A DNA stretch of 49,938 bases, from positions 1 through 49,938 of the IMG/VR virus record IMGVR_UViG_3300047301_000123; one strand, given 5' to 3'. Every line of letters begins with the position of its first letter. Position 1 is the first letter of the stretch. The notes beneath the pieces are model-generated. The model ran no database searches, had not been told where the DNA came from, and was given only the letters and a program-made list of their open reading frames with translations. The translations under genes and the position numbers were made by a program. Origin of the DNA: a virus (taxonomy: Duplodnaviria; Caudoviricetes). This document shows positions 5,494 through 21,660 of the stretch, in pieces.

Positions 5494-5494
5494 A

Positions 5495-6080: not shown

Positions 6081-6107
6081 ACGCACAACTACTTAAGAGG
6101 AGGGTTT

Positions 6108-6673: not shown

Positions 6674-7530
6674 AACAATACCTAAACCTGCTGCAAGCTA
6701 TACGTGAAACTGGAGCCGAAAAAGGTGATCGCACCGGCACCGGAACCCTTTCAATATTTGGGCACCAGATGCGTTTCGATCTTCGGGAAGGTTTCCCGAT
6801 ACTGACCACAAAAAAGATGTTCTTAAAAGGCGTAATAACCGAACTTTTGTGGTTTATAAAAGGCGACACCAACACAAAGTTTTTGGAAGAAAACGGCGTC
6901 CATTTTTGGAAAGAGTGGGCAGACGATTATGGTGATCTGGGGCCTATTTACGGAAAGCAGTTACGACACCCATATTTTGTTCCTGACATGATAGCCGGGG
7001 AGTCGGTACTTCGACGTACCGATCAACTTAGTGAAGTCATCCGAGGCATTAAAACTAACCCAAACAGCCGCCGACATGTTGTCACTATGTGGCGCCCAGA
7101 GGATTTACCCTCCGAAAACCTATCTCCACAGCAAAATGTTGCCGCAGGGAAAATGGCTTTAGCTACTTGTCACGGCACGGTAATTCAGTTCTATGTATCC
7201 AATAGGGAGCTGTCTTGCTCAACGTACCAACGTAGCGCAGATGCTTTTCTGGGGTTGCCCGTAAACATAGCCTCTTACGCCTTATTAACGCACATGATAG
7301 CCCAACAATGCGGGTTGAATGTAGGGGAGCTTATCTACACGACCGGTGACACTCACCTTTATCTAAACCATTTGGAGCAGGTACAAGAGCAACTAACCCG
7401 ATCCCCGAAAGATTTACCGCCCCTGGTTCTTAACCGTAAACCAGAGTCAATTTTTGACTATAAAATAGAAGACTTCGGGCTTATTGGTTATGCTCCGTTG
7501 GCAGCTATAAAAGCAGAGGTTTCGGTATGA
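6670..7530 (+). CDS. thyA: Thymidylate synthase
   Basis: [23 protein letters not shown], catalytic [22 protein letters not shown]. Confidence 0.97.
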
Positions 7531-7727
7531 TAGTCCCAAGAATCGGCAGCGTTTGGAAGCACCGAACTACAGGAAATGTCTACGAGGTGTACGACCACAC
7601 TAATACTGAATCTACCCGCCCTGAAGAGTACCCACTACGCATCTCATACAAACGTCTGGGGGACGGAACTACCTGGTCAAGAAGTGCATCTTTATGGCAT
7701 GCCTCTTACATAGAGCTTCCCGAGTGA
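7527..7727 (+). CDS. DUF1653-like small protein
   Basis: [12 protein letters not shown]...ISYK...WSR pattern. Confidence 0.6.
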
Positions 7728-8260
7728 AAATAAACGTAATAATGGCCTGTGACCTGAATGGGGTCATAGGCATAAACGGTAAGTTACCCTGGAACATTCC
7801 TGAAGACCTTAAGCGCTTCAAAGAGCTTACCATGAACCATGCCGTAATAATGGGGCGTAAAACCTGGGAGTCTTTACCGGTAAAACCACTATCAGGGAGA
7901 GAGAATATTGTTGTGTGCTCTAGTTGTAACTACGGAATTATGTCTGGCGACAATTTCGTTGCCAGAGCTTCCCTCGCTTCTGCGCTCAGTGCGGCGAAAG
8001 CACTAGGGAAAAAAGAAGCCTTCGTGATCGGCGGATCGAGATTATTTGAAGAAGCCATGCTTATCGCTGATACCGTCTACGTAACTGTGGCCAACCATGA
8101 AGTCGATGTACAGCCTGGCGACGAGGCAGTATGTATCAACGAACCCGCATTAAGTAGCTGGAAGATGGTGAACTGCGTCCACCTTATCGACCACACCTTT
8201 TATGTTTTAAACCGCCGTCAGCCGGTCGCTGACACCATCAAAGAGAAATACCATGACTAA
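7724..8260 (+). CDS. folA: Dihydrofolate reductase
   Basis: GVIGINGKLPWNIPEDLKRFK, VIMGRKTWESL, VIGG; GTG start overlaps the upstream TGA. Confidence 0.95.
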   Translation: MKINVIMACDLNGVIGINGKLPWNIPEDLKRFKELTMNHAVIMGRKTWESLPVKPLSGRENIVVCSSCNYGIMSGDNFVARASLASALSAAKALGKKEAFVIGGSRLFEEAMLIADTVYVTVANHEVDVQPGDEAVCINEPALSSWKMVNCVHLIDHTFYVLNRRQPVADTIKEKYHD

Positions 8261-8525
8261 AAGTGAATTAATCGCGGCTATGTCGGCTAAAACTGACCTG
8301 CCAAAAACAAAAATATCGGCCGTTATTGATGCCCTTGTTGCCACAGTAACCGAAAGTCTGATCGTAGGCAATGAAGTTGCCATTAACGGCCTGGGTACCT
8401 TCAAAGTTAAACTACGTGCTGAACGCGAAGGTCGTAATCCCGCTACCGGGGACGCAATAACCATTGCTGCCTGTACAGTAGCAAGTTTCCAGGTATCTGC
8501 GACCTTGAAAAAAGCGGTAAAATAG
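8253..8525 (+). CDS. HU/IHF family DNA-binding protein
   Basis: MTKSELI, GLGTF, RAEREGRNPATG. Confidence 0.95.
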   Translation: MTKSELIAAMSAKTDLPKTKISAVIDALVATVTESLIVGNEVAINGLGTFKVKLRAEREGRNPATGDAITIAACTVASFQVSATLKKAVK

Positions 8526-8589
8526 TTCTAAAATTATTCTGGGTTTCTACGGGAGCCCAGAATTGTTTTGGACAGTGATGCGGCTCTCA

Positions 8590-8614
8590 GCCCCCGGAAA
8601 CGGGGGTCTTTTTT
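8590..8614 (+). terminator. Rho-independent terminator
   Basis: CCCCCG-GAAA-CGGGGG plus T-rich tail; a second hairpin (TTCTGGGTTTC...GAGCCCAGAA) lies just upstream at about 8537-8561. Confidence 0.85.
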
Positions 8615-8626
8615 AAGGTAAACACT

Positions 8627-8839
8627 ATGTATAATCTATCGAAAGAAGAACTGTTTTCTATCATGGGGAAGAAAAAACGCCTTTTAGTAGAGGACTCAAT
8701 AACTTTAGCTGAAGAAGTGGCACGTCTTCAGTCAGCACTTAACCGCACTAAAGCAATCAACCGACAGTTATTGGATGAAATAGATATGCTGGTGCAAAAA
8801 CTGCTGGATATAAACTCGGTCGCCTATTCTGAGGAATAG
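8627..8839 (+). CDS. Hypothetical coiled-coil protein
   Basis: AAGG RBS; ORF track. Confidence 0.6.
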   Translation: MYNLSKEELFSIMGKKKRLLVEDSITLAEEVARLQSALNRTKAINRQLLDEIDMLVQKLLDINSVAYSEE

Positions 8840-8870
8840 GCCCCGCAATCAAAACACCCTGGAGTAAAAA

Positions 8871-9050
8871 ATGAAAGCTCAAAAAATAACAGTGACAATA
8901 ACAGTAGAGTGCCTACACAGCAGCGTTGTACCGAGTTTAGTCGGTATCGCTATGGAAAACTTCGAGAACGAATTTGAGACAGGTACTTTGGCCGCTGAAG
9001 ATGGGGACAAAGTTACCTGGGAAATAGAAAGGAAAGAGATGGTTTTTTAG
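8871..9050 (+). CDS. Hypothetical protein (59 aa), not in the ORF track
   Basis: GGAG RBS; MKAQKITVTITVECLHSS...EMVF. Confidence 0.65.
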   Translation: MKAQKITVTITVECLHSSVVPSLVGIAMENFENEFETGTLAAEDGDKVTWEIERKEMVF

Positions 9051-9056
9051 TACAAA

Positions 9057-9341
9057 ATGTACCCTAAAGAGTCGATAATAGAGGCTTACTTCGTCAGGCA
9101 GATGAAGAAAGCCTTTCCACAAGCCCAAGTACACAAGTATGAGATACGACGCGGGGAACCGGATCGTATCTGCCTTTTACCTGGAGGCATAGCTTTGTTT
9201 GTGGAGTTAAAACGCCCAGGGGCTAAACCAAGACCTGAGCAAATAAGAGCACTGGATAGGTTGGATCGGTTAGGTTTTACCGCAGTGTGGCTTTCAACCA
9301 AAAAAGAAGTAGATTTATTCGTCGTGGAGCTAATTATATGA
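9057..9341 (+). CDS. VRR-NUC domain nuclease
   Basis: ESIIE, GEPDRI, FVELKRPG, PRPEQ motifs. Confidence 0.9.
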   Translation: MYPKESIIEAYFVRQMKKAFPQAQVHKYEIRRGEPDRICLLPGGIALFVELKRPGAKPRPEQIRALDRLDRLGFTAVWLSTKKEVDLFVVELII

Positions 9342-9571
9342 AAAACCCAGCTATCAACCCGCCAAATTTACTGAATGGCTTCACCGAGCAGTTACGGGAT
9401 AATTGCTCTTTAGGGGAAGGAGGCATGGCTAAAGTAATACTGAGGGATACCACCCACGAGTACGTTAAGTATGTGTTTGGGTTTGGATTCGAAACAAAAG
9501 GCAGGGTGTTATCATGGGGTAATGCCGGAATAAGCAAAAACGGGTATAGAAAAGATATGGCGGAATTATGA
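9338..9571 (+). CDS. Hypothetical protein, paralog A (MKNPA...)
   Basis: ATGA overlap with VRR-NUC; similar to the next ORF. Confidence 0.65.
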   Translation: MKNPAINPPNLLNGFTEQLRDNCSLGEGGMAKVILRDTTHEYVKYVFGFGFETKGRVLSWGNAGISKNGYRKDMAEL

Positions 9572-9801
9572 AAAACCCAGCTACGCAAATAACACCGCAA
9601 ATAAATAACTTCACCGAAAGGCTGAAGGAAATTAGCAAGGATAAACCGGTTTTATGTCAACTACGGGTAGGATTTTCGGAAGTGATGTATGTCCCAGAAG
9701 AAGACGGCTTACCGGAAGGCTTCCGTTTTAACGATAAATCCTGGTCCATCGACGGTTTAAGTCGTCAACGACCAGCACAAGATATTGTGAGAATAGTATG
9801 A
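9568..9801 (+). CDS. Hypothetical protein, paralog B (MKNPA...)
   Basis: ATGA overlaps on both sides; similar to the previous ORF. Confidence 0.65.
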   Translation: MKNPATQITPQINNFTERLKEISKDKPVLCQLRVGFSEVMYVPEEDGLPEGFRFNDKSWSIDGLSRQRPAQDIVRIV

Positions 9802-10226
9802 ACCCTTTAAAATTCATACCTGTAGCACAAGCATTGGCAAGCCTATCTAAAGACCCTTCAACCAAAGTTGGGGCGATGGCCTTCGATGCTAAAGGAAACG
9901 TCCTGAGCGTCGGGTTTAACGGCTTCCCTCGCGGCGTGGAAGATACTAAAGAGCGATACGAAAATCGTGCTGAAAAATTGCGTTTGGTCAGCCATGCGGA
10001 AGCAAATGTGATCGCACAGGCCGCTCGCGTCGGCGCTAAACTGGAAGGCGCCAGCCTGCTAGTCACCGCCTTATACCCCTGCTCCACTTGCGCTAAGTTG
10101 ATCATCCAGTCGGGCATAAAGAAGGTTTATGCCCCCGTAACGGAGAATGACAGCAAATGGTTCGAAGAGCGCGAGGTAGCGATGCTGCTGTTTAGTGAAG
10201 CAGAGGTAGAAGTCCATGAATACTAA
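9798..10226 (+). CDS. dCMP deaminase
   Basis: SKDPSTKVGA, GFNGFPRG, HAEAN, PCSTC zinc motifs. Confidence 0.95.
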   Translation: MNPLKFIPVAQALASLSKDPSTKVGAMAFDAKGNVLSVGFNGFPRGVEDTKERYENRAEKLRLVSHAEANVIAQAARVGAKLEGASLLVTALYPCSTCAKLIIQSGIKKVYAPVTENDSKWFEEREVAMLLFSEAEVEVHEY

Positions 10227-10346
10227 AAAAGAACAAAAACAAAAGTTGATGGAAGCTATCCAAGCCGCCATCAACAATGTGCAGGGTGACTACAAAGCTA
10301 AGATTAACAAGTCACCAGCTTTTATAAACTCTAGGAGTCCGAAGAT

Positions 10347-10466
10347 ATGAGCGACGGCGGAAAAGGCAGCAAACAACGGCCTACCAATCAGGAAAAATTT
10401 AATGCTAATTGGGAGCGTATATTCGGAGGGAAGAAAAAATGTCCAGACAACAAAAAGCCTGCGTAG
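10347..10466 (+). CDS. Tiny phage protein (39 aa, MSDGGKGSKQRP...NWERIFG)
   Basis: AGGAG RBS; translated by hand; resembles a recurrent small phage peptide. Confidence 0.55.
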   Translation: MSDGGKGSKQRPTNQEKFNANWERIFGGKKKCPDNKKPA

Positions 10467-10615
10467 TCATTATCGCTCTTGGTCTCGCCTTCACAGGCTA
10501 TGCCTATGACGTGATTGAAAAATACCCAACACCAGACATCGAGCAGTATTACAAACGCTACGGCGGTGGAGTGGTAAATACCGACAGGGGCATGATTGCC
10601 GGAGACATAGAATGA
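10439..10615 (+). CDS. Small protein with N-terminal signal or TM segment
   Basis: GGAGG RBS; ACVVIIALGLAFTGYA. Confidence 0.6.
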   Translation: MSRQQKACVVIIALGLAFTGYAYDVIEKYPTPDIEQYYKRYGGGVVNTDRGMIAGDIE

Positions 10616-10782
10616 ACTGTGAACATGTTTTTGATGACCGGGACATCTGCACGAAGTGTTTCATGACCGAAGCTGAAGTCCGTTGGTGGCCGACGTTGGA
10701 TGATATAAATAGGGCTACCATCATGAATCAGGTTAAGAACCGGACGCCGCGTAGGGTACCTACCGTGGACGAGTTGATATGA
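10612..10782 (+). CDS. DUF1289-like Cys-rich small protein (56 aa), not in the ORF track
   Basis: C...DDRDICTKCFMTEAEVRWWPTLDD pattern; GGAG RBS; ATGA overlaps. Confidence 0.6.
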   Translation: MNCEHVFDDRDICTKCFMTEAEVRWWPTLDDINRATIMNQVKNRTPRRVPTVDELI

Positions 10783-11282
10783 TTACTTTAATGCAGGGTG
10801 ACTGCTTGAGTGAAATGGCTAATATTCCTGATGGTAGCGTGTTTATCCGAATTTCAGGTAAAACTTCAGGGCGGGGTGTTAGACCGGATTTAATAGGTAG
10901 AGAAGCGGGGGCAAACACCAATAAGCGTTACCGGCGTATTATGGTGGATGGGGTTAGGTACCAAGCCCACAGGCTATCCTGGTTCTATGTATACGGCGTT
11001 TGGCCTAAAGGGGTAATAGACCATAAATTCCATGACACCCATGATAACAGGATGTCACGTATCAGGGATGTCACCGAATCTGAAAACTCTCAGAATAGAG
11101 TAAAAGGGTGGGGAACTGTAGATTTTTTAGGGGTAGATTTTCACACCCCACCCGGTAAATACAGGGCCAGGATAAAAGCAAACGGGGTTACTAAACTACT
11201 GGGACATTTTTCTACTCCTGAAGAAGCGTATGCTGTATGTGTAGTAGCTAAAAGAGAGTTGCACCCAACATGCATGTTATAG
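10779..11282 (+). CDS. Chimeric ORF: DNA methyltransferase N-terminal stub fused to an HNH endonuclease
   Basis: MITLMQGDCLSEMANIPDGSV followed by AHRLSWFYVYGVWP, IDH, DNR, EN.QN, LGHFSTPEEA. Confidence 0.75.
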   Translation: MITLMQGDCLSEMANIPDGSVFIRISGKTSGRGVRPDLIGREAGANTNKRYRRIMVDGVRYQAHRLSWFYVYGVWPKGVIDHKFHDTHDNRMSRIRDVTESENSQNRVKGWGTVDFLGVDFHTPPGKYRARIKANGVTKLLGHFSTPEEAYAVCVVAKRELHPTCML

Positions 11283-12706
11283 TAAGTAAGCCTTTTACGC
11301 CCAGAGGTGAATTTCAAACAGCCGGTACCCAATTCCTACTGCGTAACGACCGTGCCAATATGTTTGTAGAGATGGGTTTAGGGAAAACTATTATGGTGCT
11401 TAACGCTCTGGATGTGATGATTCGGTGTGGGGACGTGGAAAAGTTCCTGGTCATAGCTCCTCTACGGGTAGCCCGTACTACATGGATAGCAGAAACGAAG
11501 AAATGGGACCACTTAAACCACATAAAAATAGTGTCAATAACCGGTAACCAAAAAGAGCGTTTAGAAGCCCTTAAGACTGATGCTGACGGTTACTGCATAA
11601 ACTACGAGAATTTACCTTGGTTAGCAGGCCTGTTTCGAAACAAAAAATGGCCGTTCAAGACCATCATCGCCGATGAGTCCAGCAAGTTGAAGTCACATAG
11701 GTCGCATTGGAGAGCTTTAAAAACAGGGGGTAACAGCCTGGTATGTACTGGCGGTCTTAGAACCAGTTCTCTAGCCCCGTTTGCCTTCAAGAATACTCGG
11801 CGCTTCTGGAACCTAACAGGCACCCCAGCCAGCAAGGGGTTAGACGACCTTTGGGGGCAACAGTTTTTTATAGACGGTGGACAATCGCTAGGCAATACCT
11901 ATGGCGCTTTCGATTCCCGCTGGTTCAGGACTGATCCGTTTACGCGGATCAAAGAAATGTTTGCACATTCGGAAGGCGAGATAAGAAAAGCCATTGCGCC
12001 TACGACTTTTGCCTTACGAGCAAAAGACTACATGGAGTTGGGCGAGGAGCTAGTAAACACCATCTATGTTGATTTGCCCCCTAAAGCCCGTATGCAATAC
12101 AACCAAATGGAGGAGGAACTTTGTATTGAAATAGAAAATGGCGAAGTGGAAGCTTTCAATGCGGGTGCCAAAACCATGAAAGTCCACCAGATCGCTAACG
12201 GTTTTATAATACATGGTGAAGAAGGAGAGTGGGAAGCGTTACACGATGCAAAACTAGATGCTCTGGCCGATATAGTAGAAGAAGCAGCCGGTATGCCGAT
12301 CTTGGTTTGCTACACCTTTAAAGCAGACCTCGCAAGACTTAAAAAAGCCTTTCCACAAGGGGTGGCCTTCGATACCAAACCGAAGACTGAAGCTGCCTTT
12401 AAAGCGGGTAAAATACCCATCTTGTTTATACACCCTGCGAGTGGTGGACACGGCGTAGACGGATTTCAGGACGTTACTAACATAATCGTGTTCTTTTCTG
12501 TTGACTGGAGTTGGGAGCTTCATGCACAGGTTACAGCCAGAATTGGAGCAGTTAGACAGCTGCAGGCTGGGTTTAAAAGACCTGTATTCATACACCAAAT
12601 AATTGCCAAGGACACAGTTGATGAAGACATATTAAATAGGCTTGAATCTAAAATGACGATAGAAAATGCACTAAAACGTGGACTAGCAAAGAGAGGGTTA
12701 AAATAA
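11270..12706 (+). CDS. SNF2-family helicase
   Basis: EMGLGKT, IAPLRVA, DESS, LTGTP, HQIANG, HPASGGHG. Confidence 0.93.
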   Translation: MHVIVSKPFTPRGEFQTAGTQFLLRNDRANMFVEMGLGKTIMVLNALDVMIRCGDVEKFLVIAPLRVARTTWIAETKKWDHLNHIKIVSITGNQKERLEALKTDADGYCINYENLPWLAGLFRNKKWPFKTIIADESSKLKSHRSHWRALKTGGNSLVCTGGLRTSSLAPFAFKNTRRFWNLTGTPASKGLDDLWGQQFFIDGGQSLGNTYGAFDSRWFRTDPFTRIKEMFAHSEGEIRKAIAPTTFALRAKDYMELGEELVNTIYVDLPPKARMQYNQMEEELCIEIENGEVEAFNAGAKTMKVHQIANGFIIHGEEGEWEALHDAKLDALADIVEEAAGMPILVCYTFKADLARLKKAFPQGVAFDTKPKTEAAFKAGKIPILFIHPASGGHGVDGFQDVTNIIVFFSVDWSWELHAQVTARIGAVRQLQAGFKRPVFIHQIIAKDTVDEDILNRLESKMTIENALKRGLAKRGLK

Positions 12707-13515
12707 TGAATTCTAACGTACTTATCCTTCGGCACGGAAACTGTTCCGACGGAGCTGGCGCTGCCTATGCAGCATGGAAAAAGTTCGGCGACAGTGCCGA
12801 ATATGTCGAAGTCCACTATGGGAACCCCCCTCCCGATGTCACAGGGCGAGAGGTGTATATCCTGGACTTCAGCTATAAACGTGATGTCCTTATCGAGATG
12901 CACAGTAAGGCAAAAAGTTTGTTAGTCCTGGATCACCACCTTACCGCGCAAGCCGACTTGGAAGGTTTGGACTTCGCTGTTTTCGATATGGACCGTTCAG
13001 GTTGCGTCATGGCCTGGGAACACTTCCACCCTTACTCGCCAACCCCTTTAGGACTGGCACTGATCCAGGACCGTGATTTATGGCGTTTTATAGACCCATT
13101 GACGCGACCTTTCGGAGCAGCACTTAGGGCTTTTGTTACCAGCGATTTTAATGACTGGGACCGCAATATGTGGGCTGATGACGCTACCGTTTTGGCCGAT
13201 AGAGGGGGAGATTTACTCATGGTTGCCGACCAGGAAGTAGCGGCACTGGTAAAAAGGGCGCACCCTATAAACATAGATGGCTTTGTAGGATCGGCATGCA
13301 ATGCACCGACAAAACACGCTTCAGACCTTGGTAACGCCCTAGCTAAGCTGTCCGGTACTTTCGGCCTGGTCTATTCCTACGATGGAAATACGAAAGAGTG
13401 GCAGTATTCGCTTCGATCTATCGGCGATTTCGATGTTTCTGTGTTGGCTAAAGCCTACGGTGGGGGAGGGCATAAAAATGCGTCAGGGTTTTCTACTAAG
13501 GAGTTAGCAGCATGA
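12706..13515 (+). CDS. DHH/DHHA1 family phosphoesterase
   Basis: HGNCSDG, ILDFS, LDHH, QDRDLW, SLRS, GGGGHKNASGF. Confidence 0.92.
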   Translation: MNSNVLILRHGNCSDGAGAAYAAWKKFGDSAEYVEVHYGNPPPDVTGREVYILDFSYKRDVLIEMHSKAKSLLVLDHHLTAQADLEGLDFAVFDMDRSGCVMAWEHFHPYSPTPLGLALIQDRDLWRFIDPLTRPFGAALRAFVTSDFNDWDRNMWADDATVLADRGGDLLMVADQEVAALVKRAHPINIDGFVGSACNAPTKHASDLGNALAKLSGTFGLVYSYDGNTKEWQYSLRSIGDFDVSVLAKAYGGGGHKNASGFSTKELAA

Positions 13516-13937
13516 ATCCGGCAGATACTTGTAACGGCGGCATCTACGAGAAGGACAACCACAGTGGGCCAGACGGAATTTGTGATGGGTGCATATTCGC
13601 TCGCCCGAACAAAGAGTGTAGCAATGCTTATGCTGACAGGCCAAAAGGCATAAAAATGGCTGCACAAGAAGAACAGCCCCTCACCGAGCATAAATCCGCT
13701 TTTCAACCGAAGGAAACTAAGATGACCAAACCAGCACTCGGCGTACAAGAAGGCGGCGACCACTATAAGACTATGAAAATACAACCGGTGGAGTATATCC
13801 ATGCCAACGGACTAAGCTTTTGTGAAGGGTCGATTGTAAAATATGTGTCCAGGCACAAAGCCAAAAACGGTAAGCAGGACTTACTCAAAGCTCGCCACTT
13901 TATCGACTTGATTATTGAATTGGAGTACCCAGAGTGA
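13512..13937 (+). CDS. DUF3310 domain protein (T7 gp1.7-like nucleotide kinase family)
   Basis: QEGGDHY, IQPVEYI, FCEGSIVKYVSR, KNGKQDLLKA. Confidence 0.8.
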   Translation: MNPADTCNGGIYEKDNHSGPDGICDGCIFARPNKECSNAYADRPKGIKMAAQEEQPLTEHKSAFQPKETKMTKPALGVQEGGDHYKTMKIQPVEYIHANGLSFCEGSIVKYVSRHKAKNGKQDLLKARHFIDLIIELEYPE

Positions 13938-14158
13938 TCGCACAACTACATATACATTTTAAAACCGGGCCGGCTTTAACCTGGGAAGCTAAGGATGAAG
14001 CACGTAACGACAGTATTAGAGTAGTCGCTGACGGGTTACGAGCATGGATGCGGGATACGGAAGATGAATATTTTCTGGCCGAAGCCCAGGATGGACAGTG
14101 GACGCTGATCATGCGTCGTGAAATAAAACTGATAGAGTTTATCTATGCCGAAGATTGA
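13934..14158 (+). CDS. Hypothetical protein
   Basis: GGAG RBS; GTGA overlap. Confidence 0.6.
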   Translation: MIAQLHIHFKTGPALTWEAKDEARNDSIRVVADGLRAWMRDTEDEYFLAEAQDGQWTLIMRREIKLIEFIYAED

Positions 14159-14585
14159 TAAGAAAATAGTAAGCTATAGGGTAAAAACAGAAAACCCACC
14201 CGCCGTGTACATAGGCATGCACGAAGGCGTCAAACGGTCTGATAAGTTACTGGGAGTCACTTATAAAATTAAAACACCTAAATCAGATCACGCCCTATAC
14301 GTGACCATAAACAATATCGAAATAGAGGGTGTTCAGTACCCTTTCGAGATATTTATAAGCTCAAAAAACATGGATCAGTTCCAGTGGATCATAGCTATTA
14401 CTCGTGTTATGTCAGCCACCTTCCGAAAAGGAGGCGACGTGTCCTTCCTGGTAGAAGAAATGAAGTCTGTTTTTGACCCAGCAGGCGGCTATTTCAAAAA
14501 AGGCGGCCGGTATATGAACTCCACAGTGGCTGAAATAGGCTACATCATTGAGGAACACCTGAATGAAATACATAAGACAACTTAA
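14145..14585 (+). CDS. NrdJb/TSCPD-domain protein (C-terminal part of class II ribonucleotide reductase)
   Basis: KIDKKIVSY, TYKIKTP..HALYVTIN, PFEIFI.SKN, SATFRKGGDV.FLVEE.KSVFDP.GGY. Confidence 0.8.
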   Translation: MPKIDKKIVSYRVKTENPPAVYIGMHEGVKRSDKLLGVTYKIKTPKSDHALYVTINNIEIEGVQYPFEIFISSKNMDQFQWIIAITRVMSATFRKGGDVSFLVEEMKSVFDPAGGYFKKGGRYMNSTVAEIGYIIEEHLNEIHKTT

Positions 14586-14811
14586 CCTGGCAAATCCAGC
14601 ACGGCTATTTGAACTGCAAACAGCGATGATCGAGGCCAGCCTCGCTTTTGAACTAGGCTCTAATTGGAGAACTCCGTTTAGAAAACTGATGAACAAGTAT
14701 CCCGTAGGCTACATGCACCGTGTATCTAGGATGCTGGCCAACACGGATAAAGAGCAAATAAATCGCTTATCTGCAGCTATGGCACTTGACACGGCTAAGC
14801 TACCTATATAG
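14563..14811 (+). CDS. Hypothetical protein
   Basis: GAGGA RBS; ORF track. Confidence 0.55.
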   Translation: MKYIRQLNLANPARLFELQTAMIEASLAFELGSNWRTPFRKLMNKYPVGYMHRVSRMLANTDKEQINRLSAAMALDTAKLPI

Positions 14812-14814
14812 AAT
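14786..14814 (+). promoter_or_regulatory. Near-consensus sigma70 promoter for the non-coding RNA cluster
   Basis: TTGACA-17 nt-TAGAAT; predicted +1 near 14821. Confidence 0.85.
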
Positions 14815-14822
14815 GTTAAGCA

Positions 14823-14917
14823 ACAGTTAGGGAGGCCGGTGCCACCTCGGACCGAAAAAAGGCGGGGGTTGACAAAATTTAACTAAGGGTAAAAAGTTAG
14901 CCTCCTTAACTGTACCA
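14823..14917 (+). ncRNA. Candidate small structured RNA with 14-bp terminal stem and 3' ACCA
   Basis: ACAGTTAGGGAGGC (14823-36) pairs with GCCTCCTTAACTGT (14900-13), then ACCA; starts at the predicted TSS. Confidence 0.55.
14834..14869 (+). repeat. 36-nt direct repeat, copy 1
   Basis: GGCCGGTGCCACCTCGGACCGAAAAAAGGCGGGGGT; 35/36 identical to 15522-15557. Confidence 0.95.
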
Positions 14918-14920
14918 AAT

Positions 14921-15322
14921 CCAGCTCCCTGAGCTTAGAAAGGGGGGTTGGCTACGTGCTCTATACGTAGTAGCAAGGTTTCCGGTGCTATAACCAGGAA
15001 ACACGGTCGAGCCGCCAACTCGCAGCGACATAGCTGAAGATAGGGAATCGCGCACCATTTCCACTCGTAAGGTGGCTAACGCTTAGGACTATCGAATATG
15101 CCTAAAACAGAGAACTGCGGGGACGTAGGACGGACTGATGAAACACGGCTGCTACCCGCCGTCCCAAACTTGGGTAGCACGATCTTTCACCGATGACCCG
15201 AAAGGATCGGAATACTGACATATATCGGTAACTGTCAGGCTAGTGCAGTAGTGACTTCAAAGAAGATTGCGGAGAAGTAAAAAGGGCTGTAACCCACATA
15301 TTCTGACAGCCGGAAAGACGGC
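14921..15322 (+). ncRNA. Candidate large multi-pseudoknot ncRNA (about 400 nt), family unassigned
   Basis: No ORF of 60 aa or more; dense hairpins with G-U pairs; three hairpin loops complementary to upstream segments. Confidence 0.6.
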
Positions 15323-15437
15323 ACCTAATTAAAAGCTTCTGAAGCTCACGGTTGACCTAGTAATTAGGAGCCAACCATTAAGATCGGCTCGATACTGAAA
15401 ATTCAGATGACCGTCAGGAAAGACTGACAACAAATAC

Positions 15438-15511
15438 GCGGGGTTGGCCGAGCGGTTAGGCTTCGGATTTCCAATCCGACCACAGGGTTTCGACTACCCT
15501 ACCCCGCTCCA
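15438..15511 (+). tRNA. tRNA-Gly (anticodon TCC) with encoded CCA
   Basis: Acceptor GCGGGGT/ACCCCGC, U73, CCA; D arm GCCG/AGGC; anticodon arm TCGGA-TTTCCAA-TCCGA; T arm AGGGT-TTCGACT-ACCCT. Confidence 0.95.
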
Positions 15512-15521
15512 AGAACACCAG

Positions 15522-15557
15522 GGCCGGTGCCACCTCGGACCGTAAAAAGGCGGGGGT
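15522..15557 (+). repeat. 36-nt direct repeat, copy 2
   Basis: GGCCGGTGCCACCTCGGACCGTAAAAAGGCGGGGGT, 10 nt after the tRNA CCA. Confidence 0.95.
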
Positions 15558-15700
15558 AGAAATTATCTCGAAATATTTTTTCGTGAAAATGTAAAGATCA
15601 GTCTAGGTAGTGATTTTTAGGCAGAGTTTATGAAGATTTCTCTGCCGATGCCCTGAGGTTGACATTGCTGGAAAGACAGCTAAATTAACGGAGATACACT

Positions 15701-16039
15701 ATGTATTATTTCATGCGTAAAATGGATTCCAATATGGACCTTGTTTTACATAAACTTTCAAAACTGGAGAAAAATATGTCTATTGTTTCTGAGGCTTTAA
15801 AAGCGGCTCACGCCGAACAAGATTTGATCGTCGCTGCGGTTACTTCAATTAACACAATGGTAGCCTCTATCCAAGCTAGCTTGGCAAATGGAGATACTGA
15901 AGCCGCTAGTGCATTGTTGGCGGAAATCCAAGTTAACAGCGAAGCTTTAGTCGCTGCTACCCTGGCCGGAACTGATGCTGCACATCTGGTTGACCCAGTT
16001 GTGGCTGCTCAAGTAGCTGAAGCTGTAGCTGCTGAATAA
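15701..16039 (+). CDS. Ala-rich helical hypothetical protein
   Basis: GGAG RBS before 15701; a second GGAG RBS precedes ATG 15776, a possible internal start. Confidence 0.75.
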   Translation: MYYFMRKMDSNMDLVLHKLSKLEKNMSIVSEALKAAHAEQDLIVAAVTSINTMVASIQASLANGDTEAASALLAEIQVNSEALVAATLAGTDAAHLVDPVVAAQVAEAVAAE

Positions 16040-16320
16040 ACACCTTCTCCCGGTGGTAATACGGCCTTCTTTACGGAGGCGCTGGATAACGTAACCAGCA
16101 CCTACAATAAAGCGCTTTGCTCGTCGGACTTAGAACCGTATATTCAGTTTTCAATTATGACTGCGACATAGTTTTCTCTTGTGGGTTTCCGATTAAACTT
16201 GTGTTCCGGCAGAAATGCGATTTATATACGGGAACGCTCTGATCTTTCGGCCATGCTTGAGCCGGATGCGGAAACGTGGTTTACCGGTGGCCTACAACCC
16301 TAACAAAACGGGAGAAAATA

Positions 16321-16419
16321 ATGAAAGAATACTTAATGGCGGCAGCTATAGTAGCGCTGTACGCGGTATTCGTTGTTTACAACGAAGAGTTCATACACAA
16401 ACTGGTGGATTACCTATGA
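16321..16419 (+). CDS. Small single-TM protein (32 aa), not in the ORF track
   Basis: GGGAG RBS; MKEYLMAAAIVALYAVFVVYNEEFIHKLVDYL; ATGA overlap with the next gene. Confidence 0.65.
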   Translation: MKEYLMAAAIVALYAVFVVYNEEFIHKLVDYL

Positions 16420-16916
16420 GTTTTTTCAAAACGAGCGCCCCTGAATCTGGGGCGGCGGTGCGTAAATTTTTAGCTGATATGGGTGACCTCGTAGCGCATG
16501 CAGAAGCTTTCGCGGAACGCTTCGGCGTAGGTAAACCCGTGTATGCACACAGCAATTCGGAGGCGCGACTGTACGGGATAAAGTTCGGTGAAAAGTTAGA
16601 CAATAGGTTCTGGACAAAGCCGGATAAACAAGCTGGAACGCAATCTCCGCGAAAAAACGTAACTGGGACTAAAGACGAAAAAGCCGGCCAAAAGGCGCTT
16701 TATGACCTTTGGGTCAAGCTATTTCCGAGAGAGAAGGCGTGTAAGGAAGCTATCTACGCAAGCCTGGGCATAACTTGGGCGGATACTATTTTTAGCGGTT
16801 TGTCCTGGTTTTGGCACGATGAAACCTTGTACGTAAGCACGGAGTTAAAAATTAACGCTACAGAAATATTTGGCAGTGAGTACGAAGCCGCAAAAGGGAG
16901 TACGATGAGTGAATAA
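16416..16916 (+). CDS. Hypothetical protein
   Basis: Start reassigned to ATG 16416 (MSFFKTS) on the basis of translational coupling. Confidence 0.75.
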   Translation: MSFFKTSAPESGAAVRKFLADMGDLVAHAEAFAERFGVGKPVYAHSNSEARLYGIKFGEKLDNRFWTKPDKQAGTQSPRKNVTGTKDEKAGQKALYDLWVKLFPREKACKEAIYASLGITWADTIFSGLSWFWHDETLYVSTELKINATEIFGSEYEAAKGSTMSE

Positions 16917-17211
16917 GATATACATGGGCTATGATAAAGCCGCCGGTTCGCATGAAGGCGCCATACTAATTTTTGCAGCCTCTTCAAAAGATGCCAGAAA
17001 ATTGGGCTGGGGCACCATGAAAGTGCTCCACAGCACTGCTTGGGTCGATATGGCTGTACGCTTGATGCGTAAGAATACTGAGTTCCTGGCCTTGGAAGCA
17101 ACTAGCGATAAACCGCACGTCATTACTGATATGCGGTCATGCCCCCAATGTGAATTGTGGGGAGAAGAATATAACATAAGCCACTGTGGGTATTGCGATG
17201 AGCAAGCGTAA
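16909..17211 (+). CDS. Hypothetical protein with C-terminal CxxC...CxxC zinc motif
   Basis: CPQCELWG...HCGYC; GGGAG RBS. Confidence 0.7.
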   Translation: MNKIYMGYDKAAGSHEGAILIFAASSKDARKLGWGTMKVLHSTAWVDMAVRLMRKNTEFLALEATSDKPHVITDMRSCPQCELWGEEYNISHCGYCDEQA

Positions 17212-17356
17212 AATAATCCAACTGGTAGCCGATGGCGCCGATCAGGATAACAACCCAGAACTGTATGCTTTATGTGACGACGGTTCGGTATGGATGAAGG
17301 TTACGCCTAGCAGTAGCTGGGTGAAGGTCGACGTTTCGGAGATAGAAAATGGGTAG
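17198..17356 (+). CDS. Hypothetical protein (52 aa), not in the ORF track
   Basis: MSKRKIIQL...LYALCDDGSVW; fills the gap between two ORFs. Confidence 0.65.
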   Translation: MSKRKIIQLVADGADQDNNPELYALCDDGSVWMKVTPSSSWVKVDVSEIENG

Positions 17357-17630
17357 CCCTCCTATGCCCCGAGTCGTAGTTTGCGCGGCCAACCGTAACC
17401 AGGCTGGCTCAATAGTCTGCGGGGCTAGACATTACGACGACATAATGCGGGCCCAGATTGCGGCTTCCACCGAAAACTGGAGGGTAAACCAAGTAGAGCA
17501 AGGATTCATAGACCAACGCGGCACATTTATGTCCCGTGAAGAAGCCTGGAAAGTGGCTTGTGATCAGGGTCAAATAGTTCGCCGTGTCGGCGGAGATAAT
17601 AGTTGTTTATACTCGGAGAACCTGTACTGA
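17349..17630 (+). CDS. Conserved phage hypothetical protein
   Basis: VVCAANR...GARH...EQGFIDQ.G.F.SREEA...LYSENLY pattern. Confidence 0.75.
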   Translation: MGSPPMPRVVVCAANRNQAGSIVCGARHYDDIMRAQIAASTENWRVNQVEQGFIDQRGTFMSREEAWKVACDQGQIVRRVGGDNSCLYSENLY

Positions 17631-17860
17631 TGACAAAACTAAAAGTAGTTAATTTCAACCGCGAGCGGACTGATAGCTTCGCCCCTAAAGCACTATTGAC
17701 TGAAGCCGCAGAAAGCGACTTGGAAGTCGTGCTTATTTTGGGGGAGGGGCCAGAAGGAGCCTACATTGCCAGCTCTACAACAGATATTGGCCGTATGTTG
17801 CTGCTCGTAGAGGCTTTCAAATTTGACCTGCTCGCTGGTAGTTTAGGCGACGCAGAATAG
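17630..17860 (+). CDS. Hypothetical protein
   Basis: TGATG overlap; GGAG RBS. Confidence 0.65.
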   Translation: MTKLKVVNFNRERTDSFAPKALLTEAAESDLEVVLILGEGPEGAYIASSTTDIGRMLLLVEAFKFDLLAGSLGDAE

Positions 17861-17900
17861 TTTTTTCCTTGGGATTACGATACACGGAAGTACACATTTA

Positions 17901-17925
17901 TCCCGGCTTGCGCCGGGACTTTTTT
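17901..17925 (+). terminator. Rho-independent terminator between convergent genes
   Basis: TCCCGGC-TTGC-GCCGGGA plus T run. Confidence 0.8.
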
Positions 17926-17930
17926 GCTTG

Positions 17931-18617
17931 TTAATCCAGATAGGCGATTGTAGCCTCCTTACAAAACCCGGAACGGACAATATCCTCGACGGAAAATTCG
18001 ACGACGTTGACGTTCGGAGAATCCCCCATTCGGCGTATCAACTCCGCTAAACCAGACTCCTGGTTAATAAACTTCTGTCCTAAATCCCCATCTACAATTA
18101 CCGTGGCGTTGTCGCCCACGCGAGTAATGAAATTTTTCATCTGTTTTCGGGTCGTATTTTCAGCCTCATCAAGCAGAATCCAACAATCTCTGAGTGTCCT
18201 ACCTTGCATATACGCAAAAGGGACCGCTTCGATCTTGCCGTGAGTTAGGCAGTATTCGGCGAAAGTTTTACCTAGCCGGTCATTGAACACTTCTACGTAA
18301 GGCACCAGGTAGGGGGATATTTTTTCAGCTACCGTTCCTGGCAGGAAACCCAGTTTTTCATCCGCTTCAACTAGCGGCCGGCAAATGTAAATCTTGTTTA
18401 TTCGCTTCTCACGCAACATATCGGCAGCTATCGCTGCAGCCAGGAAGGTCTTACCCGTACCAGGGGGCCCAATACCTATCGTGCAGACATACTTAAGCAT
18501 ACTGTTCATGTACTCTCGTTGCCTATCGTTTAAAGCACGAACCGGCTGTATGACCCTGATTTCTACTGGTTTTTCATACTCTGCTATGGGCTGTCTGCGT
18601 TCACGTTTCTTCGCCAT
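17931..18617 (-). CDS. phoH: PhoH family ATPase
   Basis: GPPGTGKT, RPLVEA.EKLGFLPG, YMQGRT, LLDEAEN, GDLGQ, DIVRS; TAAGGAG RBS before ATG 18617. Confidence 0.95.
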   Translation of the reverse strand: MAKKRERRQPIAEYEKPVEIRVIQPVRALNDRQREYMNSMLKYVCTIGIGPPGTGKTFLAAAIAADMLREKRINKIYICRPLVEADEKLGFLPGTVAEKISPYLVPYVEVFNDRLGKTFAEYCLTHGKIEAVPFAYMQGRTLRDCWILLDEAENTTRKQMKNFITRVGDNATVIVDGDLGQKFINQESGLAELIRRMGDSPNVNVVEFSVEDIVRSGFCKEATIAYLD

Positions 18618-18661
18618 TTGAAACTCCTTATTAAGTGAGGTTCGACTATAGCACATAGCAC

Positions 18662-18691
18662 TTGACACGTAGGTGTTTTTACCTATAAAAT
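18662..18691 (+). promoter_or_regulatory. Probable sigma70 promoter, divergent from phoH
   Basis: TTGACA followed by TATAAAAT at 16-18 nt. Confidence 0.55.
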
Positions 18692-18715
18692 ACAACCTCA
18701 CTTTGGGAGAAGAAA

Positions 18716-18901
18716 ATGAAATGGCCACTGCTGTTATTCCCTAGCGTTAACCTACCGGTTATCGGCATGGACACCACCTTCCTGCCCGATGCCGACTGCG
18801 AAAATTGCAAGTATGGCGGGGAGTTCGAAGACCAACACTGTTATATGTTCGAAGACAAGCCGGGCGATAAGTGCGGCCAATTCAAAAAGGTGACCCCATG
18901 A
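18716..18901 (+). CDS. Cys-rich hypothetical protein
   Basis: GGGAG RBS; CxxC...C...C. Confidence 0.6.
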   Translation: MKWPLLLFPSVNLPVIGMDTTFLPDADCENCKYGGEFEDQHCYMFEDKPGDKCGQFKKVTP

Positions 18902-19092
18902 TAAAAAAAGTAAGAGTGTTACTTGGGAAAATATTTCCTCCGAAAGAAACCCCCTTTGAACGAGGGTATGTCTGGGCTAAAGGTATGTTCGAGAGTGGGA
19001 TATACACGGAAGCAGAGGTAGAAGCCTGCTTGAACGGCAGCGATGCCTTTGATAAAGGTGCTGCCGCCTTCCTGCGAGAACGCCATGAGTGA
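18898..19092 (+). CDS. Hypothetical protein
   Basis: ATGA overlap; FERGYVWA...FDKGA. Confidence 0.6.
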   Translation: MIKKVRVLLGKIFPPKETPFERGYVWAKGMFESGIYTEAEVEACLNGSDAFDKGAAAFLRERHE

Positions 19093-19135
19093 TACTTTTG
19101 ATCACGAAGCAGACGCCTCGAAGAGGAGTTAGAAA

Positions 19136-19327
19136 ATGAGCATAAAACAAAACTTGCATGATTGCGGAGTAAATGTTTTTGCGATCGATCTTTTATGCGA
19201 GTCATACCTAAAAAGCCCGATCATAGGCGTTTTAGTAAAGCCCCTGGCGTTTGAGTACCCGATAGTGCGCGAGGACTGCAAAAAGTGGGCGGGCGTTAAG
19301 ATAACCTTAGAAGGAATCCCAAGATGA
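19136..19327 (+). CDS. Hypothetical protein
   Basis: GAGGAG RBS. Confidence 0.6.
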   Translation: MSIKQNLHDCGVNVFAIDLLCESYLKSPIIGVLVKPLAFEYPIVREDCKKWAGVKITLEGIPR

Positions 19328-19533
19328 AGAACGTAAATTTTTATACTGAACCACGAAACGGAAAAATATCGCTCTGGGTAGAGATTGACGCCCAAAGGTG
19401 GAACATTACCGACCTTCCGAAAGAACAGGCCGCCCCCAGCGTCCTCCGAGCCATAGCCTATGCTTTCGAGCGAGGCTACAAAGCCGCAGAGGTAGAACGG
19501 AGCAACATAAACATGGATTGGGATATTAAGTAG
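19324..19533 (+). CDS. Hypothetical protein
   Basis: ATGA overlap; AAGGA RBS. Confidence 0.6.
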   Translation: MKNVNFYTEPRNGKISLWVEIDAQRWNITDLPKEQAAPSVLRAIAYAFERGYKAAEVERSNINMDWDIK

Positions 19534-19597
19534 TCATACCTATGGTCAAATGACGCGTAAGTAGTATTCTATAGTCCTACCTCAACTGGAGACTATC

Positions 19598-19813
19598 ATG
19601 AAACAGATTAACGCATACCAAGCCACAGACGGAACAATATTTATGGACGAGATTGAATGCCAACTATATGAATTACCCGAAAAGTTCGGGGAGCAAGTCG
19701 ACGCCTTCATAGCGTCTGATCAGAACACCTACAAAAACGGCGCCCAGATAACGGTGATCAGAAAGTCACTGTTGGCCTGGGAAGTTTACAAAATGAAGAA
19801 AAGCAAACATTAA
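19598..19813 (+). CDS. Hypothetical protein
   Basis: GGAG RBS; AYQATDGTIF...EC..YE motif common in phage ORFs. Confidence 0.7.
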   Translation: MKQINAYQATDGTIFMDEIECQLYELPEKFGEQVDAFIASDQNTYKNGAQITVIRKSLLAWEVYKMKKSKH

Positions 19814-19827
19814 CCGGAAGAAAAATT

Positions 19828-21660
19828 ATGAACGAACAAGAACTTCAAGCCTATTTAGGAGCAGCCAATGTCGCATACCGGGCCGGAACACCCACGCTAT
19901 CTGACAACGACTATGACGGCATGATGGAAGACGGCAGAGAGCTGTTCCCTGATAACCCGTGGTTTAACCAACAAGAGGTTGAGCCCGAGGCGGTGGCCGG
20001 CAAAACTGTGCCGCTGCCGGCCAGGATGTTGTCTACCAACAAAGCTTACTCGATCAAGGAAATTGAAAAGTGGGCAAACGATGTATTGGCGGTAGGCAGG
20101 CAGATGCGCATGGGGGAAAGTGAAGTCTTTTTTATGGTCACACCGAAGCTGGACGGCTTTGCCGCTTATGACGACGGTGAAAAACTTTACACTCGGGGTG
20201 ACGGCAGAAGCGGTACCGATATAAGCCGAGCAATCGACAATGGGTTGAGCGTAGACGGCAGAGGTAAAGGGCCGGGGGAAATAGTGGTCGATAAGTTTTA
20301 CTTCGAGCAACATCTGGCACACTTGTATGATAACTCCCGAAACATCATTGCTGGGGTTATCAAAGAGGGCGATCTCGACGTAGAAATCAAGGACGCAATT
20401 ATACACGGAGCCGTATGTTTTCAGCCTTTCGCCGGAATAGGTCTTGAACGACAAACAGTAACGAAAAACATCTTACTATTTGGCATTGAAACATTGTTTG
20501 ACACGATGCAACGTAATTGCATCTTTGATACCGACGGTCTGGTGATCGAAGCTATTCACCCAGCTATCAAAGAAGAGATGGGTGCCACAAACCATCATCA
20601 CCGCTGGCAGATTGCTTATAAGAAAAATACCGAGTACCACAACATTCGGGTTACCGGTCTGGTGTGGCAAACATCAAAAAATGGGCGACTGACACCGGTT
20701 GTGCAACTTGAACCCACCAAAGTATCGGGGGTAACAATCAGCAAGGCCACTGGGCATAACTACGGAAACGTAGTTAAGTCTGGTATAGAGCGTGGAGCGA
20801 TCGTCCGGGTATGTCGATCAGGCTTGGTTATCCCGTACATCGAGAGCGTTGTAAAAAGAGCGCCAATGGGCGCGTTATCCCCGGCGCAATGTTTAAGCTG
20901 CGGGGAAGATACTATAGTTGACGGTGATAATTTACTCTGCACTAATACCGAAACCTGCCCAGCGCAAATCGAGGGGGCGATTGAGTTTTTCTTTAAAACG
21001 CTGGGCAGCTGCGACGGGTTTGGTCCGAAAGTGATAGAAAAACTCGTAGGTGAAGGTGTTGACACCGTACTGGAAGTTTATAGGTGCGATGAATATATTT
21101 TTGAAGATCACGGTTTTAGAGAAAAAACAGCGTTAAATCTTGCAACCGAACTCGCCATTAGTCGTCAGCGCCCCACTGAAGATTGGCGATTCCTGGCCGC
21201 ATTCTCCATCCACAACGTCGGCAAGGGGGGTTGTGAGAAACTTCTCAAGCACCATAGGCTGGCTGATGTATTTAACTTAAAGATAGATGAAATTATGCGC
21301 ATTGATGGGTTTGCCGTAAAGACAGCCAGTAGCCTTGTTAATTCATTGGCAAACATCAAGCCTCAGTTCGATGCTTTGATGAAATTAGGGTTCAATCTCA
21401 CAGAGACTCCTATCGGCGTAACCGTTGTGGGCAACCTGTCGGGCAAGACCGTGGTATTCACAGGCTCAATGCAGAAAGGCGGGCGATCAGATATGGAAAA
21501 GCAGGCCAAGTTTCTTGGAGCTAAAGTCGGCAGCTCGGTCTCTTCTAAAACAGACTACTTAATCTGCGGTGCCGATGTCGGTGCCGCAAAAACCACAGCC
21601 GCTAAGAGGCATGGCGTGACTGTATTAACCGAAGATCAATATCTGGAGATGGCGGGATGA
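19828..21660 (+). CDS. ligA: NAD-dependent DNA ligase
   Basis: AYRAG...SDNDYD, MLS..K, KLDG, TRGDG, DGLVI, AYK, OB fold, C4 zinc finger, HhH repeats, BRCT (VVFTG...SVSSKTDYL). Confidence 0.93.
   Translation: MNEQELQAYLGAANVAYRAGTPTLSDNDYDGMMEDGRELFPDNPWFNQQEVEPEAVAGKTVPLPARMLSTNKAYSIKEIEKWANDVLAVGRQMRMGESEVFFMVTPKLDGFAAYDDGEKLYTRGDGRSGTDISRAIDNGLSVDGRGKGPGEIVVDKFYFEQHLAHLYDNSRNIIAGVIKEGDLDVEIKDAIIHGAVCFQPFAGIGLERQTVTKNILLFGIETLFDTMQRNCIFDTDGLVIEAIHPAIKEEMGATNHHHRWQIAYKKNTEYHNIRVTGLVWQTSKNGRLTPVVQLEPTKVSGVTISKATGHNYGNVVKSGIERGAIVRVCRSGLVIPYIESVVKRAPMGALSPAQCLSCGEDTIVDGDNLLCTNTETCPAQIEGAIEFFFKTLGSCDGFGPKVIEKLVGEGVDTVLEVYRCDEYIFEDHGFREKTALNLATELAISRQRPTEDWRFLAAFSIHNVGKGGCEKLLKHHRLADVFNLKIDEIMRIDGFAVKTASSLVNSLANIKPQFDALMKLGFNLTETPIGVTVVGNLSGKTVVFTGSMQKGGRSDMEKQAKFLGAKVGSSVSSKTDYLICGADVGAAKTTAAKRHGVTVLTEDQYLEMAG

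What the first reader, a model, noticed from the sequence alone, without database searches (positions are those of the whole stretch)
14921..15322. Candidate large ncRNA (about 400 nt) built from serial pseudoknots, beside a tRNA
Seen: an ORF-free stretch in an otherwise gene-dense genome, downstream of a near-consensus promoter. Hairpins include CCAGCTCCCT/AGGGGGGTTGG, CTACGT/ACGTAG, GTTTCC-GGT/ACC-A-GGAAAC and CCAC/GTGG. Three consecutive hairpins have loops complementary to an upstream segment. TTAGG/CCTAA has loop CTATC (15089-93), pairing with GATAG (15039-43). TGCTACCC/GGGTAGCA has loop CCGTCCC (15159-65), pairing with GGGACG or GGACGG (15120-33). CTGACA/TGTCAG has loop ATCGGT (15224-29), pairing with ACCGAT (15189-94). 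Established: large ornate RNAs such as GOLLD and ROOL occur next to phage tRNAs. I could not recognise hallmarks of tmRNA, RNase P or group I/II introns. Inference: a divergent or undescribed large structured RNA.
Basis: partly seen in the sequence, partly recalled or inferred. Interest (0 to 1): 0.85.

Follow-up and report, generated by a model that had tools for sequence, protein, structure and literature searches.

The report
Swappable structured-RNA cassette in freshwater phage
A freshwater phage carries, behind a predicted strong promoter and ahead of a tRNA gene, a stretch with no long protein gene built of small predicted folded-RNA units that close relatives swap in and out, among them a conserved 176-base predicted double-pseudoknot unit matching no Rfam family, and these units likely work as separate accessory RNA genes rather than as one large RNA.

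Summary
The named stems and loop complements are all present, and they exceed chance. The promoter (14786-14814) and tRNA-Gly (15438-15511) are there; Rfam gives nothing else. The single 400-nt RNA is not supported. A strain 98.9% identical over 4.8 kb diverges exactly at 15180, and a more distant relative shares only 15005-15180, so the third pseudoknot belongs to a separate, replaceable unit. The 3' end (15303-15322) is a small hairpin found in unrelated phages. What holds up is a modular non-coding cassette behind an early-type promoter. Its 176-nt core, with two predicted pseudoknots, has 4 changes in 159 columns while neighbouring silent sites are about 50% diverged. A 39-nt pseudoknot-like repeat brackets the cassette and recurs in three other phages. 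All 38 predicted core pairs are invariant in the two versions, so covariation is untestable. One strain variant deletes one strand of pseudoknot 1. No transcript data were obtained. Most likely one leader transcript is processed into small stable accessory RNAs; a cis-acting leader is the main rival. Real and uncatalogued, but narrowly distributed and functionally untested.

The parts
14786..14814 (+). sigma-70-type promoter, 11 of 12 consensus matches (predicted); start site inferred near 14821
   Evidence: one of three 11/12 sites in 1-20000; both hexamers kept in L001
14823..14913 (+). Module A: 14-bp closing stem around a 39-nt near-invariant pseudoknot-like core (14834-14872)
   Evidence: core in L001, L002, L005, L006; closing stem has 2 pairs with changes on both sides in 5 sequences, inner helices invariant; fold z -3.25
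14918..15004 (+). Module B: three hairpins; the first has a loop motif shared with L001 and L002, the others vary or are replaced
   Evidence: fold z -3.55 on +, -0.31 on -; diverged copy in run X4 and a joint 14904 to 15005
15005..15180 (+). Module C, the conserved core: predicted pseudoknot 1 (15039-43/15089-93 with 15083-87/15101-05), predicted pseudoknot 2 (15128-33/15159-64 with 15150-57/15172-79), predicted helix 15019-25/15115-21, and a variable hairpin at 15061-15077
   Evidence: 92.6% to L001; 4 changes in 159 columns outside the hairpin, 10 in 17 inside; 38 of 38 pairs invariant; four-fold sites of flanking genes 50-55% identical
15181..15300 (+). Module D: replaceable unit with predicted pseudoknot 3 (15189-94/15224-29 with 15215-20/15233-38) and small hairpins
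   Evidence: absent from L001 and L003/L145, which carry other elements from this point; joint 15180 to 16043 in run X2; competing hairpin; z -0.14
15303..15322 (+). small hairpin with a GAAAGA loop; further copies at 15408-15428 and 15660-15680 with different stems; widespread in phages
   Evidence: 3 copies in the window, all on +, all between 15300 and 15680; in 5 of 5 inspected GenBank phage loci; weak partial likeness to Rfam Zeta-pan, E 6.6, 14 bits against a cut-off of 56.7
15320..15372 (+). 12-bp stem (one mismatch) enclosing a short loop motif also seen in L005 and L006
15438..15511 (+). tRNA-Gly (anticodon TCC) with encoded CCA
15522..15560 (+). second copy of the 39-nt module A core (95% identical), 11 nt after the tRNA
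   Evidence: removed in a strain variant by joint 15514 to 16040

Best explanation
The stretch is the middle of a mosaic non-coding cassette whose units are exchanged between related phages; it is likely transcribed as one leader from the predicted promoter at 14786-14814 and likely cut by host nucleases into small stable RNAs, among them tRNA-Gly and a predicted double-pseudoknot RNA at 15005-15180, which would act in trans as accessory genes, most likely as decoys or supplements against host RNA-directed defences or regulators. Shown: the mosaic boundaries, the conservation of the core and of module A, the tRNA, and the absence of Rfam matches. Predicted: promoter, helices and pseudoknots. 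Inferred and untested: transcription, processing (RNase P at the tRNA, RNase III-type cuts at the long closing stems; from established knowledge), action in trans, and the counter-defence role.
For: Breakpoints at 15005 and 15180 in L001, L003/L145 and runs X2, X4, X6. A strain 98.9% identical over 4,805 nt carries different content from 15181, as accessory genes do. The core has 4 changes in 159 columns against 10 in 17 in its inner hairpin (Fisher p 3e-9), and that hairpin is rebuilt with compensatory changes (read by eye); this fits selection better than a recent block transfer. What replaces module D in L001 and L145 is a tRNA-shaped element inside a long closing stem, with many stem changes between the two. 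Four helicase relatives have ORF-poor stretches in the same part of the genome with other predicted hairpin modules, two of them directly behind a similar promoter; some modules are duplicated or shared. No intrinsic terminator was predicted on + in 13500-16500. Phage tRNAs made from strong promoters defeat tRNA-cutting defences (PMC11555353, passages).
Against: No transcript or processing evidence exists. Covariation in the core is zero because the two versions are identical at all 38 pairs; that the 4 changes avoid the stems is weak (p 0.07). Nested folding of the core is not better than shuffles (z -0.33). A 62-nt coding stretch is 100% identical between the window and L146, so recent exchange does occur and could explain part of the conservation. 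One X4 contig keeps modules B, C and D in order. Position right behind a promoter fits a cis role equally well. Nothing here links the core to any host target.
Confidence: 0.45

Rival explanations
1. The modules are cis-acting leader elements that fold on the nascent transcript and make RNA polymerase resist pausing or termination (like HK022 put), or stabilise the downstream early mRNA.
For: The cassette starts just behind an 11/12 promoter and runs into genes with no predicted terminator. Module A lies behind a promoter in the window and in the cassettes of L001, L002 and L005. put RNAs lie just downstream of PL and about 270 nt downstream of PR (PMC9378689, passages). One bacterial look-alike of module A lies 35 nt before a sodC gene.
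Against: Modules are replaced wholesale among close strains and differ entirely in the four more distant relatives. A tRNA and tRNA-shaped elements are among them. A second copy of module A lies 700 nt from the promoter. The sodC case is 1 of 22 sodC loci. put is about 70 nt with two stem-loops, unlike the core.
Confidence: 0.25
2. Modules B, C and D form one ornate RNA of 330-400 nt with a conserved core and variable peripheral domains, comparable in role to GOLLD or ROOL.
For: One X4 contig is colinear over 14918-15044, 15089-15145 and from 15181. L001 also has the first hairpin and variable hairpins before the core. [quoted passage not shown]
Against: Clean loss of everything after 15180 in a 98.9%-identical strain. 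No conserved helix joining B, C and D was found. The 3' hairpin is a free-standing widespread motif. ROOL averages 581 nt with six multistem junctions (PMC5737381, passages). No GOLLD or ROOL score (the ROOL control did not ring).
Confidence: 0.15
3. One or more modules (the repeat A that brackets the cassette, or the core) is a self-cleaving ribozyme of an undescribed class that cuts the leader into its units.
For: Module A stands at both ends, is compact, predicted pseudoknotted and nearly invariant, and is scattered among unrelated phages and one bacterial genome, as small ribozymes often are (recalled). Theta ribozymes process phage tRNA 3' ends (PMC10879173, passages).
Against: No Rfam ribozyme family scored at E up to 10. 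Copy 2 starts 11 nt after the tRNA, outside the 5-nt limit used for theta ribozymes. A loose HDV-type descriptor gave no long-stem hit in these modules. The two CUGANGA words lack the hammerhead stems (read by eye).
Confidence: 0.1
4. The stretch is a recombination hot spot that collects inverted-repeat DNA, and the pseudoknots are chance.
For: The core has no thermodynamic signal and no covariation. The minus strand also scores on the pseudoknot scan. The scan thresholds were set after the fact.
Against: Strand-asymmetric folding of module B, compensatory changes in module A and in the core's inner hairpin, and strong conservation against silent sites.
Confidence: 0.05

Closest known systems
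GOLLD (RF02032) and ROOL (RF03087) RNAs
   Same: Phage-borne, near a tRNA, predicted pseudoknots, function unknown.
   Different: No score to either model. The conserved unit is 176 nt, not 580-800+ nt. Its neighbours are exchanged among strains. It was found in only one small phage lineage.
T5-type tRNA-rich accessory regions used against tRNA-cutting defences
   Same: Variable region, strong promoter, tRNA cargo (PMC11555353).
   Different: One true tRNA only; most of the cargo here is non-tRNA structured RNA; no defence link was tested.
HK022 put RNA
   Same: Structured non-coding element downstream of a phage promoter (PMC9378689).
   Different: put is about 70 nt with two stem-loops; here there are several larger modules with predicted pseudoknots and a tRNA; no activity was tested.
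Theta / HDV-like ribozymes
   Same: Compact pseudoknot-like element after a phage tRNA.
   Different: Starts 11 nt after the CCA, not within 5 nt; no long-stem HDV-type fit.
Zeta-pan RNA (RF03111)
   Same: The first 24 of 50 model positions resemble 15307-15330.
   Different: 14 bits against a cut-off of 56.7; no match at E up to 1 in the whole-genome search. It concerns only the small 3' hairpin.

Membership tests
GOLLD | match to the family model (conserved 3' region) | tested here: not met
   no match at E up to 1; the control rang weakly in 1 of 14 genomes, none over the cut-off
ROOL | match to the family model | tested here: inconclusive
   no match, but nothing rang in the 14 controls
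ROOL / GOLLD | one conserved RNA of about 580 nt or more with several multistem junctions | tested here: not met
   conserved unit 176 nt; sizes
ROOL / GOLLD | location near phage tRNA genes | tested here: met
   tRNA-Gly at 15438; but L001, which shares the core, has no called tRNA in its locus
ROOL / GOLLD | abundant RNA that forms RNA-only multimers | not testable with these tools
   needs expression data and cryo-EM or sizing
tmRNA | tRNA-like domain with T-arm and alanine acceptor, plus tag frame | tested here: not met
   ARAGORN found none; no Rfam score; recalled 5' and T-arm words absent
RNase P RNA | the two conserved regions that form helix P4 | tested here: not met
   recalled CR-I and CR-V words absent; no Rfam score. 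Words like recalled CR-II and CR-III occur at 15107 and 15139, but a viral scan for that pair found no new homolog (2 of 13 loci were the known relatives)
Group I / II introns | P7 elements in order, or domain V; Rfam catalytic models | tested here: not met
   an R-like word at 15087 has no S partner on that strand; no domain V word inside the finding
Hammerhead ribozyme | CUGANGA followed by stem II, GAAA, stem III and stem I | tested here: not met
   two CUGANGA words (15034, 15135) lack the full set of stems (read by eye); no Rfam score
Theta (HDV-like) ribozyme | cleavage site within 5 nt of the tRNA 3' end | tested here: not met
   the repeat starts 11 nt after the CCA; criterion from PMC10879173
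Theta (HDV-like) ribozyme | HDV nested double pseudoknot with catalytic C | tested here: inconclusive
   own loose descriptor from recall: 9 hits on +, the only long-stem ones start inside the tRNA; short-stem hits were not inspected
put-type antiterminator | cis-acting suppression of pausing and termination | not testable with these tools
   needs transcription assays
Zeta-pan | score over the family cut-off along the whole model | tested here: not met

The most novel reading that the evidence does not exclude
These phages keep a hypervariable locus of RNA-only accessory genes: interchangeable structured RNAs (a new double-pseudoknot class of about 175 nt, tRNA mimics, and a small pseudoknot shared with a host genome) that are shuffled like protein morons and act as decoys against host defences or regulators in freshwater methanotrophs.
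Probability: 0.3. Interest if true: 0.8.

Novelty: new variant of a known kind. Interest (0 to 1): 0.5.

Why it matters
Phage accessory and counter-defence genes are catalogued almost entirely as proteins and tRNAs (own knowledge). A locus where near-identical strains swap whole structured RNAs gives natural alleles with which to ask what non-tRNA RNAs beside phage tRNAs do, the open question also for GOLLD and ROOL. The 176-nt core and the 90-nt module A are small enough to transcribe, probe and solve directly. If it proves to be only a folded leader, it adds two or three motifs to a long list of uncharacterised phage RNAs.

Tried and rejected
Homologs of the core beyond the window's lineage were not found. 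Viral pattern scans returned only the two known relatives: 2 of 2 loci, 2 of 12, 1 of 7, 2 of 13. The metagenome scan gave 0 of 120 loci but covered only 25 of 64 parts and used one exact 16-mer. BLAST found nothing in GenBank phages or plasmids, in 0 of 401 genomes of the order of G006, or in 0 of 400 scored genomes of its class (one more was not scored). The two-sequence model R1 hit 1 of 50 viral records, which is the one it was built from, and 0 of 151 genomes. nhmmer found no core match in 78 helicase loci, 1.12 Mb, or in 11 further stretches. The module A pattern found 0 in GTDB. Expression: no RNA holder listed, and nothing was laid from the one RNA run; this is no evidence either way. 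A paired T-loop reading of 15109-15143 (recalled RNase P / T-box motif) found no support. A twister reading of module A (recalled) was dropped: no Rfam score and the spacing is not kept in the window or L001. Module A as a conserved sodC leader was rejected: 1 of 22 loci. Coding: the only ATG with a possible ribosome site in the core (15138) is lost in L001, and the core differs by 2 nt in length. Print: no paper held the hairpin word or 'Zeta-pan'; one search on phage leader RNAs returned none. The readable supplements of PMC10690425 held none of the motifs tried, but its two large PDFs and three archives could not be searched, and the supplement of PMC5737381 was unreadable, so these modules may already be listed there. 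Earlier scan notes: none.

Full report
Setting. The window is a 49.9-kb virus record, about 54% complete, with DNA polymerase, helicase, ligase and endolysin genes and a 4,169-aa polyvalent protein. Its polymerase is at best about 46% identical to those of named phages. All nine runs that hold part of the stretch are freshwater or lake metagenomes. The host is probably a methanotroph of the Methylococcales. This is inference: a phage sharing module A has an SSB 69-79% identical to those of 5 of 5 Methylobacter genomes tried.

Observation. A scan for hairpins whose loop complements an upstream segment found 5 in the stretch, against 0 of 1000 shuffles at that level and 13 of 1000 at three. The core alone has 2 (2 of 500 shuffles). 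The thresholds were set after seeing the sequence, and the minus strand scores 3 (5 of 500). Nested folding is not exceptional for the whole stretch (z -1.29), for 15005-15180 (-0.33) or for 15181-15300 (-0.14); it is for 14918-15004, on the + strand only (-3.55 against -0.31). Rfam finds only tRNA-Gly in the window at gathering scores and nothing credible at E up to 10. The promoter at 14786-14814 matches 11 of 12 positions, and no + strand terminator is predicted up to 16500.

The stretch is a mosaic. L003/L145 is 98.9% identical to the window over 4,805 nt and diverges exactly at 15180. L001/L146 has the same upstream genes and shares only 14780-14913 and 15005-15180 of the cassette, then rejoins near 16040. 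Contigs from lake runs show the same joints: 15180 to 16043 in X2, loose ends at 15180 in X4 and X6, 14904 to 15005 in X4, and 15514 to 16040 in X4 and X6. Pseudoknot 3 therefore lies in a unit that two relatives lack, and its upstream strand has a competing local partner. The last 20 nt of the finding are a hairpin with a GAAAGA loop. It occurs three times in the window with three different stems, and in 5 of 5 unrelated GenBank phage loci inspected out of 22 records hit.

The core, 15005-15180. It is 92.6% identical in L001, whereas four-fold degenerate sites of four flanking genes are 50-55% identical. Ten of the 14 differences fall in one 17-column hairpin that is rebuilt with compensatory changes; 4 fall in the other 159 columns, none in the 76 paired ones (Fisher p 3e-9; p 0.07 for avoiding the stems). 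This fits purifying selection, though a 62-nt coding stretch that is 100% identical shows that recent exchange also happens. All 38 predicted pairs are invariant, so covariation cannot be tested. One X4 contig, laid at 80% likeness, skips 15045-15088 with five letters between. This turns 15039-43/15089-93 into a plain hairpin and removes the 15083-87 strand: it supports that helix and shows that pseudoknot 1 is not obligatory. The same contig skips 15146-15180 with unknown letters between, and resumes at 15181. That colinearity is the best argument left for a longer RNA. No distant homolog was found in any collection (counts under Tried and rejected).

The surroundings. A 39-nt repeat brackets the cassette. 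It recurs almost unchanged in L001 and in three phages with different neighbouring genes (5 of 6 loci, one of them the near-identical strain; L004 is a chance match). Its closing stem shows 2 pairs changed on both sides in 5 sequences (6 of 500 shuffles reach the covariation score); its inner helices never vary. A model of it hit 1 of 151 methanotroph-family genomes strongly (E 1.8e-7), 35 nt before a sodC gene, with three weak hits I judge chance; it was in only 1 of 22 sodC loci. In place of module D, L001 and L145 carry a tRNA-shaped element in a long closing stem. The four closest helicase relatives (58-60% identity) have ORF-poor stretches in the same region holding other predicted hairpin modules; L247 and L249 share modules, some duplicated, and L246 shares one with L001 (E 4e-6). 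None scored in Rfam. Serial pseudoknots are not general there: the scan was clearly above chance in none of the four, L247 being borderline at 18 of 500.

Mechanism. I commit to a single leader transcript that host nucleases cut into small stable RNAs acting in trans as accessory genes, most likely decoys or supplements against host defences or regulators (0.45). The modularity and the tRNA are shown; promoter and folds are predicted; transcription, processing and function are inferred. The analogy is the T5 tRNA-rich region (PMC11555353, passages seen). Rivals are a cis-acting put-like leader (0.25; PMC9378689, passages), one ornate RNA (0.15; 10.1101/2024.12.08.627333 and PMC5737381, passages), a new self-cleaving ribozyme (0.10; PMC10879173, passages) and chance (0.05).

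Novelty. No module reaches any Rfam cut-off, and I found no description in the searches named above. PMC10690425 (listing, start of abstract and part of the supplements seen) reports over ten thousand candidate viral RNAs, and its alignments could not be read, so a prior listing is possible. Consensus words for tmRNA, RNase P, introns and ribozymes used are recalled. Verdict: a real, uncatalogued structured region; not one 400-nt RNA; a new variant of the phage tRNA-adjacent non-coding region; interest 0.5.

Noticed in passing
L001:1768-1860 and L145:4812-4895: A tRNA-shaped element (closing stem, hairpin, T-arm-like hairpin) inside a long perfect stem replaces window 15181 onward; the two versions differ at many stem positions; not called by ARAGORN or Rfam.
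   Followed up: partly
L352:1501-1584 (G370): A diverged look-alike of module A lies 35 nt before a chromosomal sodC gene in one methanotroph-family genome (E 1.8e-7); not found at 21 other sodC loci.
   Followed up: yes
L249:14830-15290 and 15682-16021; L247:10284-11007; L243:15432-15890 and 16177-16530; L246:13240-13600: Related 80-94 kb phages have non-coding stretches of other predicted structured modules, some duplicated or shared, none in Rfam; each is a candidate RNA motif in its own right.
   Followed up: partly
L002:1060-1500, L005 and L006 around the module A match: Three other phages carry module A in a chain of further conserved hairpins, including a stem with compensatory changes and a conserved loop just upstream (read by eye).
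   Followed up: partly
L330:1485-1601 (-), record G407: A tRNA of 117 nt with about 45 extra bases in the anticodon arm scores 48 bits in Rfam but is not called by ARAGORN; possible intron or insertion.
   Followed up: no
window 15659-15686: A second promoter-like site (10 of 12) overlaps the third GAAAGA hairpin, ahead of the 112-aa ORF 15701-16039, which has no family and no relative but itself in the protein search and is lost in some strains.
   Followed up: partly
window 15438-15511: A second allele of the tRNA-Gly with at least five substitutions and a different upstream neighbour occurs in runs X1, X4 and X6.
   Followed up: no
window 22803-35312 (-): 4,169-aa polyvalent protein with InPase, PBECR5, ART-PolyVal, LPD23 and LPD39 domains, holding a 21-nt tandem repeat near 34330-34372.
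   Followed up: no
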